Origin: a phage
Strand: one strand, 5' to 3'
Sequence record: PZ445454.1
DNA: 64,000 nt
Positions 17,525-40,741 of the stretch are shown here, piece by piece (position 1 is the first letter of the stretch; every line of letters starts with the position of its first letter). The position numbers and the translations under genes were made by a program. The notes below the pieces were generated by a model. The model ran no database searches, was not told where the DNA came from, and worked only from the letters and a program-made list of their open reading frames with translations.

Positions 17525-17788
17525 TTGAGAGAGAATAAAATGTTTAATAAAAGCAAAGCTGTGAGTCATGTAGCAAAAGTTGACAGTAAGATTGAAGAAC
17601 TTGAGCGCATTCTTGCAAATGCTAGAGAGTCGATAATTAAAGAAGTTGAAGCTGTTGAATCTCAAATGCAGCACCTAATGCTTAAACGTCAAGAGCTACG
17701 TGAACATCTGGAATATATTGAAACACGAGAGCTAAAGGTTAACAGATATTTTAAGGAGTCCGAATGTTTAACTCAAGAGAATCAGTAA
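17525..17788 (+). CDS. hypothetical coiled-coil protein
   Basis: 87 aa. Confidence 0.45.
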   Translation: MRENKMFNKSKAVSHVAKVDSKIEELERILANARESIIKEVEAVESQMQHLMLKRQELREHLEYIETRELKVNRYFKESECLTQENQ

Positions 17789-18519
17789 AAAACTGGAATC
17801 TTCGTTGCGGAAAAACTCAAAAACAACCATACAGTAATGAGTATTGGGAGTCTTTGAAATCTCAATCTCTGTGTATGCTTGAAGAAGCAAAAGAGCTTGT
17901 AAAAGCAATTGAAGAGAAAGACCCCATTGAGACACTGGATGCTCAGGCAGATTTGCAATATGTTCTTGACGGTTTGATTTATCTGTCACAACATGACCAT
18001 AACGGTGCTATGAAAGCTGTTTGCCATAATAATGACCTGAAGTACACAGATGACTATGAAGAAGCTTTAAAACGTCTTGCAGATGTTGAGAAGCGTACTG
18101 GTCAAGAGTGTATCATCAGAATGTCAGTGGTTGATGGTAAAGAGTGGTATGCGATTGTCCGTGCAGCCGATGGGAAGATTATGAAGCAATCAAATCTCCC
18201 TAAAGTACAGCTTGGTGAATACATTGTAGAGCTTGAAAGCCAAGAACTTTTTGTGGTAGTATCTGAGACATGCGTTATCTGCAAAGGTATTGTAGGTAGC
18301 TTAAAGGATTTGGGTGTAGATGGTTTTGTAGAAGTTAATCCAATTACCTCTAAAGCAGATAAAGATTTCTGTAAAGAGAATGGACTATGGATTGCAGATA
18401 TTGTCTACTATGATGGTGAGCAGTTCCATGTAACCTCATACCCGAAACTGAATTATGATGCTAATAACCTGAAGTGCTGGTTAAAAGGGGTTGGTTATAA
18501 TGGATTCACAGAACATTAA
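17764..18519 (+). CDS. hypothetical protein
   Basis: 251 aa ORF. Confidence 0.5.
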   Translation: MFNSRESVKNWNLRCGKTQKQPYSNEYWESLKSQSLCMLEEAKELVKAIEEKDPIETLDAQADLQYVLDGLIYLSQHDHNGAMKAVCHNNDLKYTDDYEEALKRLADVEKRTGQECIIRMSVVDGKEWYAIVRAADGKIMKQSNLPKVQLGEYIVELESQELFVVVSETCVICKGIVGSLKDLGVDGFVEVNPITSKADKDFCKENGLWIADIVYYDGEQFHVTSYPKLNYDANNLKCWLKGVGYNGFTEH

Positions 18520-23307: not shown

Positions 23308-24504
23308 ATGAACAAAGTACAGATTATTAAAAAGAATGGCTCACTCGAAGAACCTGATATCAAAAAAGTTTTAGCAGCAGTCACAAAGTCAGCTAATAGG
23401 GTTGGGTATAGAGAACTCCCACCAGATGTTACCCAAGCTCTTGAGTCAGCATTTATGAGGATTCTGGTAAAATCCACTAAGCAGAATAACTTGCTCATCT
23501 CGGTAAATGATATCCACAGTATCGTTGAAGGTGCTTTGGCAGAAGTCAATCACGAGATTTATGAGTCTTACTCAACATACAGAAATTACCGTAAAGAGGT
23601 TGCTCAAAATTGGGATGAACTCTACCAGAAGACTAAAGATACACTCTTCTTAGGTGACCGTGAAAATGCTAACTTTGACAGTAGTTTAATTTCTACGAAA
23701 GGTTCAATTATCCGTGGTTACCTGACTAAAGAAATCTTTAAACAGTATCATCTAACACCAGAGGAACTTGAAGCCATTGAGAAAGGCTTTATCTATATCC
23801 ACGATTTGAGAGACCTGATTTTTGGTGGTATTAACTGTTGCCTGTTTGACATTGGTAAAGTCCTGAAAGGTGGCTTTGAAATGTCTGGCATCGAATATTG
23901 TGAACCAAAGTCTGTGCTGTCGGCCTTACAGGTTATTGGTGACGTAGTTCTTTCAGCAACTGCACAGCAATTTGGTGGCTTTACTTTAGCAGAGATTGAT
24001 AAGGTACTTGTGCCGTATGCTAAGAAGTCTCTACGCTACCATGCTGAGAAAGCAGCATCTTATGGTATTCCTAAAGAACATTACCATAATTATGTCATGG
24101 AGCAGCTACAGCTTGAATTGACTCAAGGTTTTCAATCACTTGAAATGAAACTAAACACTGTACCTTGTAGCCGTGGGGATTTTGCATTCACAACTTTGAC
24201 ATTTGGTTTACTTGACTCAGATATGTCTAATGAAGACAACCGGCTACAATACATGATTGCAAGTACTCTCCTAGATGTTCGTATGAATGGACAAGGTAAG
24301 AGCAAGAAGCCTGTTGTATTCCCTAAACTGGTTTATATCTATGACCAGAAGAGACATGATGAAAATATCTGTCAAGGTCACCTGTACAGTAAAGCCATTG
24401 AGTGCTGCTCTAAAGCAATGTATCCAGATTTCTTAAGTGTATCTGGTCATGGTGCTGTAGCAGAGGCTTTTGAGCGTTCTGGTAAGGTTATTTCACCGAT
24501 GGGT
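23308..24504 (+). CDS. nrdD: anaerobic ribonucleotide reductase, exon 1
   Basis: ORF ends ...SPMG then stop; the stop lies in the intron; continuation CRAFLSPY...GRANIGAVSLNLP found in frame at 25247. Confidence 0.8.
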
Positions 24505-25246
24505 TAACAGGCTCTATAGCTCATCTAAAACGTGCCTAAACAGGGAAACTCTACAGATGTAGACAATCCTGTGCTAAATGATGTAAGATGTAAGAAACTA
24601 TATAACATAGGAGTATTACATGCCAAATTATCATGTTACTGAAGACGGAAGAGTCTTTAGAGAAAATGGTGTAGAGCTTACACAGTGGAAATCCAACACT
24701 GGGTATATGAAAGTAAAGTTTTACGGTAAGAAGAATCGTGACATGTATGTCCATAGGTTAGTTGCTGAGAAATATGTACCTAACCCAAACAATCTTCCAA
24801 TTGTAAAACACAAAGATGATAACAAACTGAACAACCATGCTTCTAACTTAGAATGGGGAACTCATTCTGAGAATGTTAAAGAAGGTTATGAGAACGGTTG
24901 CTACAAGTTTTGTAAGCGTTCATATGCTGTGAAGGCTACACACAAAGTGACAAAAGAAGTTATTGCTGCCAAGTCAATACGAGAGTTATCCAATATACTC
25001 GGATATAATCGCAAGACTATCTCTTCAATATTGAAGGGTGTAAAAGAGCATAATAACTTTGAACATGAATTTGAATACATCTAAATGCCGAACGACTAAC
25101 CGTGATGAATGTAGCGGTGTAGGGTCAAGCGACTCGAAATGGTACGCTACTTAGAAATAAGTAGAAGATATAGTCTGGACTTACTGGTGACAGTAAGCAG
25201 CTTGGATAAAGCGGGGTAAGCGTAGCGAACTTGCCTGAACAACAAG
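24505..25246 (+). mobile_element. group I self-splicing intron interrupting nrdD, carrying an HNH homing endonuclease ORF
   Basis: 5' exon ends in T, intron ends in G; 5' region (CTAAACAGGGAAACTCT...GTAGACAATCCTGTGCTAAAT) resembles the T4 td/nrdD intron core as I recall it; ORF in a peripheral loop. Confidence 0.8.
24620..25084 (+). CDS. HNH homing endonuclease (intron-encoded)
   Basis: 154 aa; HKDDNKLNNHASNLEWGTHSEN HNH motif. Confidence 0.8.
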   Translation: MPNYHVTEDGRVFRENGVELTQWKSNTGYMKVKFYGKKNRDMYVHRLVAEKYVPNPNNLPIVKHKDDNKLNNHASNLEWGTHSENVKEGYENGCYKFCKRSYAVKATHKVTKEVIAAKSIRELSNILGYNRKTISSILKGVKEHNNFEHEFEYI

Positions 25247-26194
25247 TGTAGAGCATTTTTATCACCATACCATAACGAAGATGGTGAAGAGTTTTATGTA
25301 GGTCGTGCTAACATTGGTGCTGTGTCTTTGAACTTACCAATGATTTACCAGTATTCTAAAGAGAATGGTTTAGATTTCTGGAAAGAGCTTGATAAGTACC
25401 TAGAGATGATTCGTAGTTTCCACAAGAAACGCTATGAAATGATTGCCAATATGCCAGCAAGTTCTAACCCTCTTGCATTTACACAAGGTGGTCTGTACAA
25501 AGGAACTAAGAAGCCTACTGACAGGGTTGGTTGGGATATTGTGAAGTCCTTCACAGCTTCTTTTGGGGTTACTGCGCTTGATGAGCTATCTGTTCTTGCT
25601 GAAGGTAAACGACTTCATGAAGTTGGAAGTTATAGTTTTGCATATGATGTTCTGGCATACATCAACATGAAAACTGAAGAGTTTAAAAATGAAGATGGCT
25701 TCTTATATGCCGTCTATGGTACTCCAGCAGAATCACTTTGTGGAACTCAGCTAAAACAGTTCAGAGAAATGTTTGGTGTTATCAAAGGTGTTTCTGATAA
25801 GGAATATTTTACAAACAGTTTCCATATGAATGTTGCAGCAGACATCTCACCATTTGAGAAGCAGGACTTAGAAGAACCATTCTTCCATATCTGTAGAGGT
25901 GGCAGAATCCAGTATGTAAGGGTAGCTAACCCAGAAAACTTAACAGCACTTAAAAGTTGTATTACAAGAGGGATGTTGAAAGGTTTTTATCAGGGACTTA
26001 ACTTTGACTTAGCAATCTGTGAACATTGTGGTAACAGACCAAAGGCTGATGTCGAAGAATGTGAGGTTTGCCATTCACATGATATCTCTGTGATTAACAG
26101 GGTGTGCGGATATCTGGGATGGACTAAGATTAAAGGTGAATCCCGAATGAATGATGCAAAAATCGCTGAGATTCGTGACAGGATTTCTATGTAA
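25247..26194 (+). CDS. nrdD: anaerobic ribonucleotide reductase, exon 2
   Basis: C-terminal Cys cluster CEHCG...CEVC and glycyl-radical motif RVCGYLG; ORF track 25322..26194 but the frame is open from 25247. Confidence 0.8.
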   Translation, partial: CRAFLSPYHNEDGEEFYVGRANIGAVSLNLPMIYQYSKENGLDFWKELDKYLEMIRSFHKKRYEMIANMPASSNPLAFTQGGLYKGTKKPTDRVGWDIVKSFTASFGVTALDELSVLAEGKRLHEVGSYSFAYDVLAYINMKTEEFKNEDGFLYAVYGTPAESLCGTQLKQFREMFGVIKGVSDKEYFTNSFHMNVAADISPFEKQDLEEPFFHICRGGRIQYVRVANPENLTALKSCITRGMLKGFYQGLNFDLAICEHCGNRPKADVEECEVCHSHDISVINRVCGYLGWTKIKGESRMNDAKIAEIRDRISM

Positions 26195-28575: not shown

Positions 28576-28625
28576 ACAGATACTATAAGGGGACTGTAAA
28601 GGTTCCCTTTTATTTTGGAGATGAT

Positions 28626-29141
28626 ATGTATCTGTCAAACCTAAAACGTTCTGCTGCAATGTCAGTGCTAAGACTCAGCTTTGAGGAACGTCAAGAGTTC
28701 ATTGACTCCCACCAATACGACCCTTCTAACTCCAATCACATGATTCTCTGGAATCGTGGCAGTACTCGTGAAAGAGCACTATTCCGTTACTACCCGCATT
28801 ACACCATAGATAACCTGTATGAGTGTTTTGTTGTGAAGAACACCATTACAGTACTCAATAAACTTTGCAGATACACAGGTAGTCAATCCTTCACATTAGG
28901 CCACCACAAACCTGTTACAAAGGGTGGTGAGCATCACTGTGCAAACTGGTTTATCCAGACTAAACTTGATAACCAGAAGCAAGGGGATAACCTTCTAAGC
29001 ACACCTAAGATGACCTATGAAGAGCAAGAGAAATATATCAAAAATAATATGCCAGGTGTGCTTGACAACAACTATACAGATTTGGCAATATCTCTCCTGT
29101 TGAAGTTCGAGACAGTTTATAGGGCAACTTACAATGGCTAA
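28626..29141 (+). CDS. HNH endonuclease-like protein
   Basis: 171 aa; GHHKPVTKGGEHHCANW...N motif. Confidence 0.45.
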   Translation: MYLSNLKRSAAMSVLRLSFEERQEFIDSHQYDPSNSNHMILWNRGSTRERALFRYYPHYTIDNLYECFVVKNTITVLNKLCRYTGSQSFTLGHHKPVTKGGEHHCANWFIQTKLDNQKQGDNLLSTPKMTYEEQEKYIKNNMPGVLDNNYTDLAISLLLKFETVYRATYNG

Positions 29142-29412
29142 AGAGAAGTGGGAGATTTTACCATTAGTCAGTGAAGGTGGTAATGGTTGTGAAATGTACA
29201 TGATACGTGGTCATGTTCCAGAACCAATTGCGCTTGAGATGGTAAACAACTTTACAGATGGCTCTTACAAAGACTTAGGGGAGCCAACTATAAAGCAGCA
29301 ATGGGTAAAGCCTGTACCAGACAGCACAGGTAACTGTAGTGTACTTTATCACGTTGTAGACCCTGCAAAATGCAAATCTGCAATGGCAGTAACAAACGTA
29401 ACTTTTGATTGA
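29134..29412 (+). CDS. hypothetical protein
   Basis: 92 aa ORF. Confidence 0.45.
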   Translation: MAKEKWEILPLVSEGGNGCEMYMIRGHVPEPIALEMVNNFTDGSYKDLGEPTIKQQWVKPVPDSTGNCSVLYHVVDPAKCKSAMAVTNVTFD

Positions 29413-29423
29413 GAGATAAAACT

Positions 29424-30305
29424 ATGAAAACTGTTATTGAAGCCGTCGTCACCGCACAAGAGAAATTCTTCCACACAGAAAAATTCAATATCATTCAATT
29501 CCCATCTGGAGAAATTGGTGGAAACTTCTCTGAAGATTTTGTTAAGTTTACTGAGCGTAATGCTGGTAAGATTGATAATGTTATAATTACTGTACAGGGA
29601 TATGACAAAGATACACTGTTTGCATTAGCTTTGGCTAAGGATGCCGTTGACAGTCTTGTTCCCCAGAAATCAGCGATGAAAACCATTGTTTTCGGGTTCT
29701 TACCAAATGCTCGATATGACCGCCACATGTTCAAAGGTGATGCAGCAGCACTGAAAGTCTTTGCCAACCTAGTTAATGCAATGGGTTTTGATGCAGTATG
29801 TGCTCTTGACCCTCACAGTAATGTTGCAGAAAACTTATTTAAGTGCTTTCAAAGCATGAAGCAAAAAGATGTGGCAGTACACTTTGCAAGTGACCCACGC
29901 ATTGATTTCTTGGTAGCCCCAGATGCAGGTGCAGCTAAGAAGACTGAAGACACCGCTAAAGAGGTGGATAAACCGTATATCACAATGTCTAAGGTGCGCA
30001 ATCTTAAGACTGGAGAAATTACTGGTATGCGAATCCTTGATGATGTTGATTTGACAGATAAAACTGTCATGATTCTGGATGATATTTGTGATGGAGGCCG
30101 AACCTTCGTAGAGGCAGCGAAACACCTACGCGAAGCAGGTGCAAAACGTGTGGAACTCTATGTAACACATGGAATTTTCTCTAAAGGTGTTGAAAACTTG
30201 CTTGACAACGGAATCGACCATATCTACACTACAAACACTTTAGGTGAAGCTAAAGACCGTGGCTTAACACATTACGGTCAAGTGACTGTAGCAACCATTG
30301 ACTGA
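29424..30305 (+). CDS. ribose-phosphate pyrophosphokinase (PRPP synthetase)-like protein; candidate ADP-ribose pyrophosphokinase of a NAD+ reconstitution pathway
   Basis: PRTase-type motif MILDDICDGGRTF and PRPP-synthetase-like N-terminal half; ORF track start 29409 is non-ATG, ATG at 29424; immediately upstream of the NAMPT-like gene. Confidence 0.7.
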   Translation: MKTVIEAVVTAQEKFFHTEKFNIIQFPSGEIGGNFSEDFVKFTERNAGKIDNVIITVQGYDKDTLFALALAKDAVDSLVPQKSAMKTIVFGFLPNARYDRHMFKGDAAALKVFANLVNAMGFDAVCALDPHSNVAENLFKCFQSMKQKDVAVHFASDPRIDFLVAPDAGAAKKTEDTAKEVDKPYITMSKVRNLKTGEITGMRILDDVDLTDKTVMILDDICDGGRTFVEAAKHLREAGAKRVELYVTHGIFSKGVENLLDNGIDHIYTTNTLGEAKDRGLTHYGQVTVATID

Positions 30306-30313
30306 GATTTTAT

Positions 30314-30336
30314 AGGGGCTTGAAAGCCCCATTTTG
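30314..30336 (+). terminator. hairpin (terminator-like)
   Basis: GGGGCTTGAAAGCCCC followed by ATTTT. Confidence 0.4.
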
Positions 30337-30350
30337 AGAGAGACTAAAAG

Positions 30351-32132
30351 ATGACTAAATCACTTTACGCAGTACCAGCAGGTTTAAATGCAGATGCTTA
30401 CAAATCTGGTCATGTTTACCAGTACCCTAGTGCAACAGAATACTTGATGTTCAACCTGACACCACGTAGTGATAAATGGTTTAACAGCCCCTTAGCAATT
30501 GATGGTGTAGTGGCTTTTGGTATTCAGCGTTTTGTTAAAGATTACTTGATAGACCACTGGAACGCAACTTTCTTTGAGCGTGATAAAAAAGAAGCAATTG
30601 ACGAAATCTTAGAAGTCATGAATGGTGTTCTGGGTAAAGATGCTATCGGTCGAGAGCATTGGGAAGCACTTCACGACTTAGGCTATCTACCAGTTGAAGT
30701 ATATGCTGTAGAAGAAGGTACAGTTGTCCCTATGCGTGTCCCAATGATTGTCTTCCAGAACACTGTTTCAGGCTTCCATTGGGTAGCAGGTTATCTGGAA
30801 GATGCTTTCTCTGCTGAGATTTGGAAGGCTTGTACCATTGCAACTATTGCATTGCACTACAAACGCATCTGTAAGAAGTGGGCTGACCTTACTTGCGACA
30901 ATGACTTACATTTACCTTATCAGTGCCATGACTTTGCTATGCGTGGTATGTCCGGCTTTACTGATGACGCATTTAACGCTGTAGGCCACTTAACCAGCTT
31001 TAAAGGAACTGATAGCTTCCCTGCTGTGTATACGGCTAAACGAATATATGGACAGTCTTACCCAATCTCTGATATTGGTAGTTCTGTACCAGCCACTGAG
31101 CACTCTGTAATGTGTGCAAACATTGCTTGGGAAGGTGGTAATGAGTTGATTGAAGAAGAAAGACGCTTTAAAGGTGAGTTGCAAACCTTCCGTCGTTTCT
31201 TAACAGAAACTTACCCAACTGGTATTGCAAGTATTGTTTCAGATACTTATAACTTCTGGAGAACCGTGTCAGAAATCTTGCCAGCACTTCGTAAAGAAAT
31301 TATGGAACGTGATGGTAAGCTGGTAATTCGCCCTGACTCTGGAGACCCTGTACATATTGTCACAGGTTATAAAGCAATCCACTTAGAGTGTGCTAAGAAG
31401 GCTTATTACGAGCATCTAAGCAAGCTGGAAGCTAGTGACACAATGTTGGATGCTGTTCTGAACATGAAGCTTGAAAACATCAGCTATGGTATTGCTGGAT
31501 GGCTACTATCAGAAGGCTACGAAATGGTTGTTGACAGAGAAGACTTTGAAGTTGCTGATACAGTGATGTTGAAAAATGCTTATATGGTTGGTTCTGCAAA
31601 CGTTGTAACACGTCCTGTAGCTGAGATTGATGGAGCTATTAAGACACTGTACAACATCTTTGGAGGAACTACTAACTCTAAAGGGTTTAAGGTGCTGGAT
31701 GAGCATATCGGCCTTATCTATGGTGACTCTATCACGCTGGAACGTGCAAACGAAATCCTGAAGCGTCTGTATGAAATGGGTTTTGCAAGCTCTAACGTAG
31801 TGTTTGGTGTAGGCTCTTACACTTACCAGTACATGACTCGTGATACCTTTGCATTTGCTGTCAAAGCAACCCTTGCAAGCATTGGTGGTAAAGAGATTAT
31901 GCTTGCAAAAGACCCTAAAACAGATAGTGGTGTTAAGAAGTCTGCCTTTGGTGGTGTATCACCTATGTGGGATGGTGATAAGCTGAAAGCTGTAGATGGC
32001 TATGGATTCCAGAGTTTTGCAGATGTACTTGACCACCCAGCTTGTGCTTTACGTTTAGTCTTTAGTGACTCTGAGCAGTTCGGTTACACAACTCTTGGTG
32101 ATATTCGAAACAATATTGACAAGCAGCTTTAA
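30351..32132 (+). CDS. nicotinamide phosphoribosyltransferase (NAMPT/NadV)-like protein
   Basis: 593 aa; N-terminal DAYKSGH motif and length typical of the NAMPT family. Confidence 0.75.
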   Translation: MTKSLYAVPAGLNADAYKSGHVYQYPSATEYLMFNLTPRSDKWFNSPLAIDGVVAFGIQRFVKDYLIDHWNATFFERDKKEAIDEILEVMNGVLGKDAIGREHWEALHDLGYLPVEVYAVEEGTVVPMRVPMIVFQNTVSGFHWVAGYLEDAFSAEIWKACTIATIALHYKRICKKWADLTCDNDLHLPYQCHDFAMRGMSGFTDDAFNAVGHLTSFKGTDSFPAVYTAKRIYGQSYPISDIGSSVPATEHSVMCANIAWEGGNELIEEERRFKGELQTFRRFLTETYPTGIASIVSDTYNFWRTVSEILPALRKEIMERDGKLVIRPDSGDPVHIVTGYKAIHLECAKKAYYEHLSKLEASDTMLDAVLNMKLENISYGIAGWLLSEGYEMVVDREDFEVADTVMLKNAYMVGSANVVTRPVAEIDGAIKTLYNIFGGTTNSKGFKVLDEHIGLIYGDSITLERANEILKRLYEMGFASSNVVFGVGSYTYQYMTRDTFAFAVKATLASIGGKEIMLAKDPKTDSGVKKSAFGGVSPMWDGDKLKAVDGYGFQSFADVLDHPACALRLVFSDSEQFGYTTLGDIRNNIDKQL

Positions 32133-32145
32133 AAGTATATGATAA

Positions 32146-32168
32146 GAGGCTCCTACGGGAGCCTTTTT
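32146..32168 (+). terminator. intrinsic terminator
   Basis: GGCTCC-TACG-GGAGCC followed by TTTTT. Confidence 0.6.
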
Positions 32169-39955: not shown

Positions 39956-40741
39956 ATGGGTATTGTAAAAATCATCAATGGGGATATCTTCTCCGCATTT
40001 GATAAAGGTAAGTTTGATATTATTGGTCACGGTTGCAACTGTATGAACTTAATGGGTGCAGGTATCGCTGACAAGATTTCTAAACTTTACCCAAAAGCAT
40101 ATGAGACAGATACAGAAGTTTATCTGTATGCAGGTGGTATAGGCCACAAACCCTGTGAAAATTTACTAGGCAACTTCTCTGTAGCACGTTTAAAACAAGG
40201 CCGTATAGCTAACCTTTACACTCAGCTTAAGACTGGTAAAGATGCCCGATACAGTGCTTTAGAGTCATCTCTGAAACAGCTTAACAGATACTGTGAAGTT
40301 AATCAGTTGAAGAAAGTTGGTTTACCTATGATTGGTGCAGGTATCGGTGGACTTGACCCTCAAGCCGTCACCGTTATCATTAATCAGGTGATGAAGAGCG
40401 TAGATGTCTATCTATATGTCTACGAAGGAGAGATGTACTACAAGTTACGCTCAGGTTGGAAGAACTACTGTGAACCAGAATACTTTGCAGGTGTAGTAGT
40501 GTTCACTGACAATGCAGTTACCCTCTTCAGACGAAGAAAAGGTAAGATACATCAAAGTAACCCTCCGGTTGAAAAGATGTCTCTAAGTAACGCTCTAGTT
40601 ACCCACCTGTCGAAGAGCAATCACAGAATTGCCGTGACGTTTGGTAGTGATGCCGATACATATATCTATGCAAGAACTGATGAGGATATCGAGACAGTTT
40701 TCTCTTCACCAGAAGTTACCTTCTTAGACGCAAAGAACTAA
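39956..40741 (+). CDS. Macro-domain protein (ADP-ribose binding/processing)
   Basis: 261 aa; N-terminal INGDIFSAFDKGKFDIIGHGCNCMNLMGAGIADKI and later GLPMIGAGIGGLDP match Macro-domain signatures. Confidence 0.6.
   Translation: MGIVKIINGDIFSAFDKGKFDIIGHGCNCMNLMGAGIADKISKLYPKAYETDTEVYLYAGGIGHKPCENLLGNFSVARLKQGRIANLYTQLKTGKDARYSALESSLKQLNRYCEVNQLKKVGLPMIGAGIGGLDPQAVTVIINQVMKSVDVYLYVYEGEMYYKLRSGWKNYCEPEYFAGVVVFTDNAVTLFRRRKGKIHQSNPPVEKMSLSNALVTHLSKSNHRIAVTFGSDADTYIYARTDEDIETVFSSPEVTFLDAKN

What the first reader, a model, noticed from the sequence alone, without database searches (positions are those of the whole stretch)
29424..32132. Adjacent PRPP-synthetase-like and NAMPT-like genes: candidate NAD+ reconstitution (counter-defence) module
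A ribose-phosphate pyrophosphokinase homologue sits directly upstream of a nicotinamide phosphoribosyltransferase homologue, with no NMN adenylyltransferase next to it. To my recollection this pairing matches a recently described phage pathway (termed NARP1) in which a Prs-like enzyme pyrophosphorylates ADP-ribose and a NAMPT-like enzyme joins it to nicotinamide to rebuild NAD+, countering NAD+-depleting immunity such as TIR, SIR2 and SEFIR effectors. The alternative is ordinary NAD salvage.
Basis: partly seen in the sequence, partly recalled or inferred. Interest (0 to 1): 0.8.

Follow-up and report, generated by a model that had tools for sequence, protein, structure and literature searches.

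The report
Known phage NAD+ rebuilding operon (NARP1)

Summary
A 293-aa Prs-like gene (29424-30305, +) sits 45 bp upstream of a 593-aa NAMPT-like gene (30351-32132, +), and the window has no NMN adenylyltransferase. Exact-sequence look-up maps both proteins only to Escherichia phage JohannRWettstein (Bas63): QXV81770.1 and QXV81771.1. The 30-nt Cas13a guide used to delete Bas63 genes 79-80 matches the window perfectly at 29747. Bas63 is the Felixounavirus in which Osterman et al. (bioRxiv 10.1101/2024.02.11.579819) discovered NARP1. They showed that deleting genes 79-80 sensitises the phage to SIR2-HerA, and that infected cells contain ADPR-PP. The window's Namat keeps every catalytic residue and the Namat-specific adenine clamp (GSYTYQYMTRD; K42-W43). 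Its Adps keeps the essential lysine (K190). Novelty: already known. Interest is low. One loose end: a Macro-domain protein 7.8 kb downstream (39956-40741) belongs to the same PHROG family as the Adpp phosphatase of the extended pathway NARP1-AP. That family is also common in phages without NARP1, so a role alongside NARP1 is only a possibility.

The parts
29424..30305 (+). adps (Bas63 gene 79): ADP-ribose pyrophosphate synthetase, a divergent Prs-family enzyme, 293 aa
   Evidence: ORF; PF00156/PF14572, phrog_619 and TIGR01251. It is 293/293 identical to Bas63 Adps QXV81770.1. K190 aligns with the essential K162 of SPbetaL1 Adps. The Cas13a guide used for the Bas63 deletion matches exactly at 29747.
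30315..30330 (+). GC-rich hairpin (GGGGCU-UGAA-AGCCCC, then AUUUUG) in the 45-bp adps-namat spacer; role unknown (weak terminator, attenuator or mRNA-stability element)
   Evidence: Sequence. Fold is -12.8 kcal/mol, z -2.41. The terminator scan did not call it. In some relatives an HNH endonuclease gene occupies this spacer.
30351..32132 (+). namat (Bas63 gene 80): nicotinamide ADPR-transferase, a NAMPT-family enzyme, 593 aa
   Evidence: ORF; PF04095/PF18127 and phrog_448. Exact match to QXV81771.1. Best PDB matches are the SPbetaL1 Namat structures 9W5W/9W5X at 430 bits, against 178 bits for Xanthomonas Nampt and about 144 bits for human NAMPT. Catalytic and clamp residues are conserved, and the SCH motif GSYTYQYMTRD lies at aa 488-498.
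32144..32167 (+). intrinsic-terminator-like hairpin plus T-run that ends the unit
   Evidence: 10-bp stem with 5 GC pairs followed by a T-rich tail. Fold is -18.9 kcal/mol, z -2.39. A terminator is annotated at the same place in phage Tribble.
28587..28609 (+). upstream terminator-like hairpin that marks the 5' boundary of the terminator-bounded unit
   Evidence: Tribble Term10.
28626..29412 (+). two small ORFs (171 aa, weakly HNH-like; 92 aa) between the upstream terminator and adps. They are probably co-transcribed and are not known to take part in the pathway.
   Evidence: phrog_3500 and phrog_4726, no Macro or RyR domain. The published Bas63 deletion removed only genes 79-80, and the two-gene SPbetaL1 operon alone is sufficient.
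39956..40741 (+). unlinked Macro-domain protein (QXV81786.1, 261 aa) of the Poa1p/Adpp-like family; a possible but unproven accessory enzyme (ADPR-1''-phosphate to ADPR)
   Evidence: PF01661 at 1e-07, 32.3 bits, cut-off 22. It falls in phrog_335 together with three published Adpp proteins. It is 27% identical, E 1e-13, end to end with the characterised Vibrio phage Gary Adpp. The family occurs in 2,823 phage records, including T4-like phages.

Best explanation
This is the NARP1 operon (NAD+ reconstitution pathway 1) of Escherichia phage JohannRWettstein (Bas63), a Felixounavirus. NAD+-depleting defence systems (SIR2-HerA/Nezha, type I Thoeris, DSR1/2, SEFIR) split NAD+ into ADP-ribose and nicotinamide. 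Step 1: Adps (29424-30305) uses ATP to put a pyrophosphate on ADP-ribose, making ADPR-PP. Step 2: Namat (30351-32132) replaces that pyrophosphate with nicotinamide and regenerates NAD+ directly, with no NMN intermediate and no NMN adenylyltransferase. The phage thereby keeps enough NAD+ to finish replication. Shown here: the identity of the genes, the conservation of catalytic and specificity residues, and the absence of an NMNAT. Shown in the literature for this phage: the deletion phenotype, partial NAD+ rescue, independence from host pncC and nadR, and ADPR-PP in infected cells. Inferred for these exact proteins from SPbetaL1 homologues (32% and 47% identical): the two reactions as measured in vitro.
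For: Identity: Adps is 293/293 identical to the Bas63 Adps printed in Osterman Table S1, and the first 399 aa of Namat are identical to the portion printed in Table S2, where it is labelled 'Adps-associated'. Exact look-up returns only QXV81770.1 and QXV81771.1 of JohannRWettstein. The Cas13a guide for the Bas63 79-80 knock-out matches at 29747. Bas63's own record, MZ501086, is absent from the searchable phage collection although its neighbouring accessions are present. The best other phages are only 94-97% identical. Residues: Namat D15, Y17, F195, R198, D221, A248, R327, D329, G458, D459, G488, S489, Y490, Y494, T496, R497 and D498 correspond to the ligand-contacting residues of SPbetaL1 Namat. 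The SCH motif is GSYTYQYMTRD, against GGALLQKVDRD in Xanthomonas Nampt. The SCL is K42-W43, as described for Bas63. Adps K190 corresponds to SPbetaL1 K162. Adps fails every canonical Prs equivalog cut-off. [quoted passage not shown]
Against: Bas63 Adps 'did not purify well', so the in vitro chemistry was done with SPbetaL1 proteins, not these. SPbetaL1 Namat can also make NMN from PRPP when ADPR-PP is absent, so some classical activity is not excluded. Generic HMMs cannot separate Namat from Nampt: NF006629 is passed at 468 bits against a 405-bit cut-off. This Namat has about 100 residues of insertions that the crystallised homologue lacks, most of them between aa 340 and 427, and their effect is unknown. 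NAD+ rescue in Bas63 infection was only partial.
Confidence: 0.95

Rival explanations
1. Ordinary NAD+ salvage. The first enzyme is a true PRPP synthetase and the second a true Nampt that makes NMN, which host NadR or PncC-dependent routes then turn into NAD+.
For: The database names of both proteins say exactly this. SPbetaL1 Namat can make NMN from PRPP in vitro. NF006629 is passed.
Against: [quoted passage not shown] ADPR-PP accumulates only with the wild-type phage. The homologous Adps gave no measurable product in the control reaction for Prs activity but converted ADPR plus ATP to ADPR-PP, and Namat made only NAD+ when offered both PRPP and ADPR-PP. The window protein has the aromatic adenine clamp that Nampt lacks. 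Adps misses all Prs equivalog cut-offs. The window has no NMNAT.
Confidence: 0.03
2. A nucleotide-supply module. The pair sits next to the nrd genes simply to raise PRPP and nucleotide pools for phage DNA synthesis, and has nothing to do with defence.
For: It lies in the early/metabolic region, just downstream of nrdA, nrdB, nrdD and nrdG, in a window that also carries thymidylate synthase and dNMP kinase genes.
Against: In the published plaque assays the deletion phenotype is a reduced titre on cells expressing SIR2-HerA, compared with empty-vector control cells. A nicotinamide-handling enzyme has no role in bulk nucleotide synthesis. 97% of Adps-clade genes are linked to a Namat gene.
Confidence: 0.02

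Closest known systems
NARP1 of Escherichia phage JohannRWettstein (Bas63), genes 79-80 (Osterman et al., bioRxiv 10.1101/2024.02.11.579819)
   Same: Everything tested: protein sequences identical over their full length, gene order, spacing, and the guide-RNA target site.
   Different: Nothing detected. The window appears to be a piece of this genome.
NARP1 of Bacillus phage SPbetaL1 (Adps WIT26982.1; Namat, PDB 9W5W/9W5X), the biochemically and structurally characterised pair
   Same: Same two-gene order. The Adps catalytic lysine, all Namat nicotinamide/NMN-contact residues and the GSxTYQYxTRD clamp motif are conserved.
   Different: Only 32% (Adps) and 47% (Namat) identity. The window Namat is about 100 aa longer, mostly through insertions between aa 340 and 427. 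Its SCL uses K42-W43 instead of R40.
NARP2 of Vibrio phage KVP40 (Nampt plus bifunctional Nmnat)
   Same: It also uses a NAMPT-family enzyme and counters NAD+-depleting defence.
   Different: NARP2 goes through PRPP and NMN and needs an NMN adenylyltransferase. The window has a Prs-like Adps instead and no NMNAT.
NARP1-AP of Vibrio phage Gary (Adps-Adpp-Namat; bioRxiv 10.64898/2026.01.28.702374)
   Same: Same Adps and Namat core. The window also encodes a Macro-domain protein of the same PHROG family as Adpp.
   Different: In NARP1-AP the Macro gene lies inside or beside the operon. Here it is 7.8 kb away, carries an extra C-terminal region of about 100 aa, and no Escherichia or Salmonella phage is in that paper's NARP1-AP table.
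Canonical PRPP synthetase (Prs) and nicotinamide phosphoribosyltransferase (Nampt/NadV)
   Same: Same folds and catalytic cores.
   Different: Adps scores 49-114 bits against Prs equivalog models whose cut-offs are 296-536 bits. Namat carries the aromatic adenine clamp that is absent from Xanthomonas Nampt and, according to the published alignment, from human Nampt.

Membership tests
NARP1 (Adps + Namat) | A Prs-family gene and a NAMPT-family gene adjacent on the same strand | tested here: met
   29424-30305 and 30351-32132, both on the + strand, 45 bp apart.
NARP1 (Adps + Namat) | The Prs-like protein belongs to the phage Adps clade, not the cellular Prs clade | tested here: met
   It is identical to Bas63 Adps, a query and member of the published Adps set, where it is flagged as Namat-associated. 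It fails all NCBIfam Prs equivalog cut-offs. No new tree was built here.
NARP1 (Adps + Namat) | Adps catalytic lysine (SPbetaL1 K162 = B. subtilis Prs K197) | tested here: met
   K190 in the window protein.
NARP1 (Adps + Namat) | Namat catalytic core (SPbetaL1 D13, Y15, F189, R192, D215, R306, D308) | tested here: met
   D15, Y17, F195, R198, D221, R327 and D329 in the window protein.
NARP1 (Adps + Namat) | Namat selectivity-clamp helix motif GS-X-phi-X-phi-X-phi-TRD with aromatic X (PMC12774641) | tested here: met
   GSYTYQYMTRD at aa 488-498. SPbetaL1 has GSFTYQYNTRD and Xanthomonas Nampt has GGALLQKVDRD.
NARP1 (Adps + Namat) | Selectivity-clamp loop that supplies a stacking residue (Arg, or Lys/Tyr followed by the stacking residue) | tested here: met
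   K42-W43 aligns with SPbetaL1 R40-V41, which is the Lys-type arrangement the paper describes for Bas63. The geometry itself was not modelled here.
NARP1 (Adps + Namat) | Enzymatic activity: ADPR + ATP to ADPR-PP, then ADPR-PP + nicotinamide to NAD+ | not testable with these tools
   Literature: ADPR-PP was detected in Bas63-infected cells; the in vitro reactions were shown only for the SPbetaL1 homologues.
NARP1 (Adps + Namat) | Counter-defence phenotype against NAD+-depleting systems | not testable with these tools
   Literature: Bas63 delta-79-80 forms about 20-fold fewer plaques on SIR2-HerA.
NARP2 (Nampt + Nmnat) | An NMN adenylyltransferase encoded by the phage | tested here: not met
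   No PF01467-type or Nudix domain in the 30 ORFs scanned. No NMNAT motif in any open frame. None annotated in the relative Tribble. Only 64 kb of the 87.1-kb genome is in the window.
NARP1-AP (NARP1 + Adpp phosphatase) | A Macro-domain ADPR-1''-phosphate phosphatase gene within or beside the NARP1 operon | tested here: not met
   None of the 10 flanking ORFs has a Macro domain. A Macro gene of the same PHROG family exists, but 7.8 kb downstream.
RyDEP-extended NARP1 | A RyR-domain (PF02026) gene in the NARP1 locus | tested here: not met
   No PF02026 hit among the flanking ORFs at E up to 1.
Canonical PRPP synthetase | Reaches a curated equivalog score for Prs | tested here: not met
   The best equivalog score is 113.8 bits against a cut-off of 296. 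Only the broad subfamily model TIGR01251 is passed.
Canonical Nampt (NadV) | Membership of the PRPP-specific Nampt clade rather than the Namat clade | tested here: not met
   NF006629 is passed, so that HMM does not discriminate. However, the protein is listed as 'Adps-associated' in the published table, scores 430 bits to Namat structures against 178 and 144 bits to Nampts, and has the aromatic clamp.

The most novel reading that the evidence does not exclude
Bas63 and other Felixounaviruses may carry an unrecognised 'split' NARP1-AP. Under this reading the unlinked Macro-domain protein at 39956-40741 (QXV81786.1) acts in trans as an ADPR-1''-phosphate phosphatase. It would feed ADPR into Adps and Namat and extend protection to RES-type (aRES) NAD+ phosphorylases. 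These phages were not counted in the published survey because the gene is about 8 kb from the operon. The evidence allows this but does not favour it. The same Macro family occurs in thousands of phages, including T4-like phages not known to carry NARP1. The window protein is no closer to proven Adpp proteins (27-30% identity) than to those T4-like proteins (34-37%).
Probability: 0.2. Interest if true: 0.45.

Novelty: already known. Interest (0 to 1): 0.1.

Why it matters
NARP1 matters in itself. It showed that phages can chemically rebuild NAD+ from the debris left by abortive-infection NADases, using two reactions unknown before 2024, and it defeats several unrelated defence families at once. 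This window adds nothing to that, because it is the published type locus. The useful results are three. The scan's first stage recognised a real counter-defence operon from raw sequence alone. Database annotation of these genes across more than 250 related phage records is still the misleading 'Prs' and 'NAMPT'. And a possible unlinked accessory phosphatase deserves a simple experiment.

Tried and rejected
1. I looked for the Bas63 GenBank record to compare directly. MZ501086 is not in the phage collection, so I used the sequences printed in the paper's supplementary tables and an exact-sequence look-up instead.

2. I looked for accessory NARP1 genes (Macro/Adpp, RyR/RyDEP, NMNAT) among 10 flanking ORFs and found none.

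3. I tested whether the distal Macro gene is specifically linked to NARP1. tblastn shows the family in 2,823 phage records, including many T4-like phages, so co-occurrence cannot be argued from these data. A full cross-tabulation is not possible with 60-row outputs.

4. The promoter scan gave 31 sites against 23.3 +/- 5.0 expected. That is uninformative, so no promoter is assigned.

5. I considered predicting the Namat structure to examine the roughly 88-residue region containing the two large insertions. I did not run it. It would have needed an expensive homologue search for a side question that cannot change the verdict.

6. I considered building new Prs/Adps and Nampt/Namat trees. I rejected this as redundant, because the proteins are identical to members of the published trees.

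Full report
**Observation.** The window carries two + strand ORFs, at 29409/29424..30305 and 30351..32132. The finding's coordinates are exactly the ATG of the first and the stop of the second.

- The first product (293 aa from the ATG) matches the phosphoribosyltransferase and Prs-associated domains PF00156 and PF14572. It also matches PHROG phrog_619 'ribose-phosphate pyrophosphokinase' (2.4e-99) and the broad Prs subfamily model TIGR01251 (138.5 bits, cut-off 113). It fails every curated Prs equivalog model, for example 113.8 bits against a cut-off of 296.
- The second product (593 aa) matches PF04095 and, marginally, PF18127, phrog_448 'nicotinamide phosphoribosyl transferase' (2.4e-201) and NF006629.

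**Where the window comes from.**

- DNA searches show a Felix O1-like myovirus. 257 phage records match the two genes, almost all of them Escherichia, Salmonella, Shigella or Citrobacter Felixounavirus-type phages. The best matches are only 94-97% identical.
- The paper that defined NARP1 (Osterman et al., bioRxiv 10.1101/2024.02.11.579819) started from genes 79-80 of the BASEL phage Bas63, also called JohannRWettstein, accession MZ501086.1.
- That accession is the only one of its neighbours missing from the searchable collection.
- The paper's supplementary tables print the Bas63 proteins. The window's Adps is 293/293 identical, and the first 399 residues of its Namat equal the printed portion.
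- The 30-nt Cas13a spacer used to delete Bas63 genes 79-80 matches the window exactly at 29747.
- An exact-sequence look-up then returned QXV81770.1 and QXV81771.1 of JohannRWettstein for the two full-length proteins. The Namat sequence is the sole member of its cluster, seen on one 87,100-bp contig.
- The window is therefore Bas63 itself.

**What it is and how it works.** According to the paper:

- Deleting genes 79-80 lowers plating on SIR2-HerA cells about 20-fold.
- Wild-type phage partly preserves NAD+.
- A new metabolite, ADPR-PP (m/z 720.010), appears only with wild-type phage.
- With the SPbetaL1 homologues in vitro, Adps converts ADPR plus ATP to ADPR-PP and showed no Prs activity in the control reaction. 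Namat converts ADPR-PP plus nicotinamide to NAD+ and prefers ADPR-PP over PRPP.
- The Bas63 Adps did not purify well. The in vitro chemistry is therefore an inference for these exact proteins, although a strong one.

**Sequence tests run here.**

- I rebuilt the SPbetaL1 Namat sequence from the PDB alignment. All 20 residues named in the structural paper (PMC12774641) fell on the expected numbers, which validates the numbering.
- The window Namat keeps the nicotinamide and NMN contacts: D15, Y17, F195, R198, D221, A248, R327 and D329. R327 is the equivalent of R306, whose mutation kills activity.
- It also keeps the AMP and adenine contacts: G458, D459, G488, S489, Y490, Y494, T496, R497 and D498.
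- The Namat-specific 'selectivity clamp helix' motif is present as GSYTYQYMTRD. SPbetaL1 Namat has GSFTYQYNTRD. Xanthomonas Nampt has GGALLQKVDRD, with no aromatic residues.
- The clamp loop reads K42-W43, the Lys-plus-next-residue arrangement the authors describe for Bas63.
- In the PDB the protein scores 430 bits to the Namat structures 9W5W/9W5X, 178 bits to Xanthomonas Nampt and about 144 bits to human NAMPT.
- Adps is 32% identical to SPbetaL1 Adps and keeps the essential lysine as K190.

**Surroundings.**

- Terminator-like hairpins at 28587-28609 and 32144-32167 bracket a unit of four + strand genes: a 171-aa weakly HNH-like ORF, a 92-aa ORF, adps and namat. The same terminators are annotated in phage Tribble.
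- The 45-bp adps-namat spacer holds a smaller GC hairpin at 30315-30330. In some relatives an HNH endonuclease gene sits in this spacer.
- None of the ten flanking ORFs has a Macro, RyR, nucleotidyltransferase or Nudix domain.
- Twenty further ORFs and a six-frame motif scan found no NMNAT.
- This is therefore the basic two-gene NARP1. It is not NARP2, not the operon-encoded NARP1-AP and not the RyDEP-extended form.

**One loose end.**

- ORF 39956-40741 (QXV81786.1, annotated 'putative phosphatase') has a Macro domain (PF01661, 32.3 bits, cut-off 22).
- It falls in phrog_335 together with three Adpp proteins listed in the NARP1-AP paper.
- It aligns end to end with the characterised Vibrio phage Gary Adpp at 27% identity, E 1e-13.
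- No Escherichia, Salmonella or Shigella phage appears in that paper's table, and Bas63 is not mentioned there.
- However, the same Macro family is found in 2,823 phage records, including many T4-like phages, which are not known to carry NARP1.
- The window protein is, if anything, closer to those T4-like proteins (34-37% identity) than to proven Adpps (27-30%).
- An in-trans Adpp role is possible but unproven. I put it at about 0.2.

**Verdict.** The feature is the already published type example of NARP1, so it is already known and of low interest as a discovery.

Noticed in passing
window 39956-40741 (+): A 261-aa Macro-domain protein (QXV81786.1, 'putative phosphatase') lies 7.8 kb downstream of NARP1. 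It is in the same PHROG family (phrog_335) as the Adpp ADPR-1''-phosphate phosphatases of NARP1-AP and is 27% identical to the characterised Vibrio phage Gary enzyme. It has an extra C-terminal region of about 100 aa. The family is also widespread in phages without NARP1.
   Followed up: partly
window 31368-31631 (Namat aa 340-427): The Bas63 Namat has two large insertions (58 and 19 aa) within aa 340-427, plus smaller ones at aa 46-49 and 258-278, relative to the crystallised SPbetaL1 Namat. They have no Pfam match, and a search of the structural paper's main text for 'insertion' found no mention of them. Phage SUSP2 also has extra sequence here, with a different sequence.
   Followed up: partly
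window 30315-30330; locus L005 2391-2882: A GC-rich hairpin followed by AUUUUG sits between adps and namat inside the supposed two-gene operon. In a fraction of related phages (e.g. Salmonella phage BPS15Q2) a free-standing HNH homing-endonuclease gene occupies this same spacer.
   Followed up: partly
window 23308-26194 (+): The anaerobic ribonucleotide reductase gene nrdD is split into 399-aa and 290-aa parts by a 154-aa HNH endonuclease ORF (24620-25084). A group I intron model matches below Rfam's threshold at 24912-25197 (38.9 bits, local E 4e-08) and weakly at 24540-24637. This suggests an intron-borne homing endonuclease.
   Followed up: partly
window 58577-63556 (+): A cluster of 25 tRNA genes (23 of them reach Rfam's gathering score), interspersed with small ORFs including DUF7338 and DUF7217 proteins.
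   Followed up: no
window 28626-29141 (+): The 171-aa ORF that heads the terminator-bounded unit containing NARP1 has a weak HNH-endonuclease-like match (phrog_2214, 3.8e-04; its main family is phrog_3500, function unknown). Its sequence contains a GHHKP...GGEHH...N motif.
   Followed up: no
window 17764-18519 (+): A 251-aa protein with a MazG/PRA-PH-type pyrophosphohydrolase domain (PF01503, 1e-05), annotated as hypothetical in relatives.
   Followed up: no
window 29424-32132, and more than 250 related phage records: Nearly all GenBank records of related Felixounaviruses still name these genes 'ribose-phosphate pyrophosphokinase' and 'nicotinamide/nicotinate phosphoribosyltransferase'. One record even calls the first gene nadR. 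The annotation has not caught up with the 2024 functional assignment.
   Followed up: no
phage collection, accession MZ501086: The GenBank record of Bas63 is absent from the searchable phage collection although MZ501084, MZ501085 and MZ501087 are present. This is consistent with the window's own source record having been withheld.
   Followed up: yes
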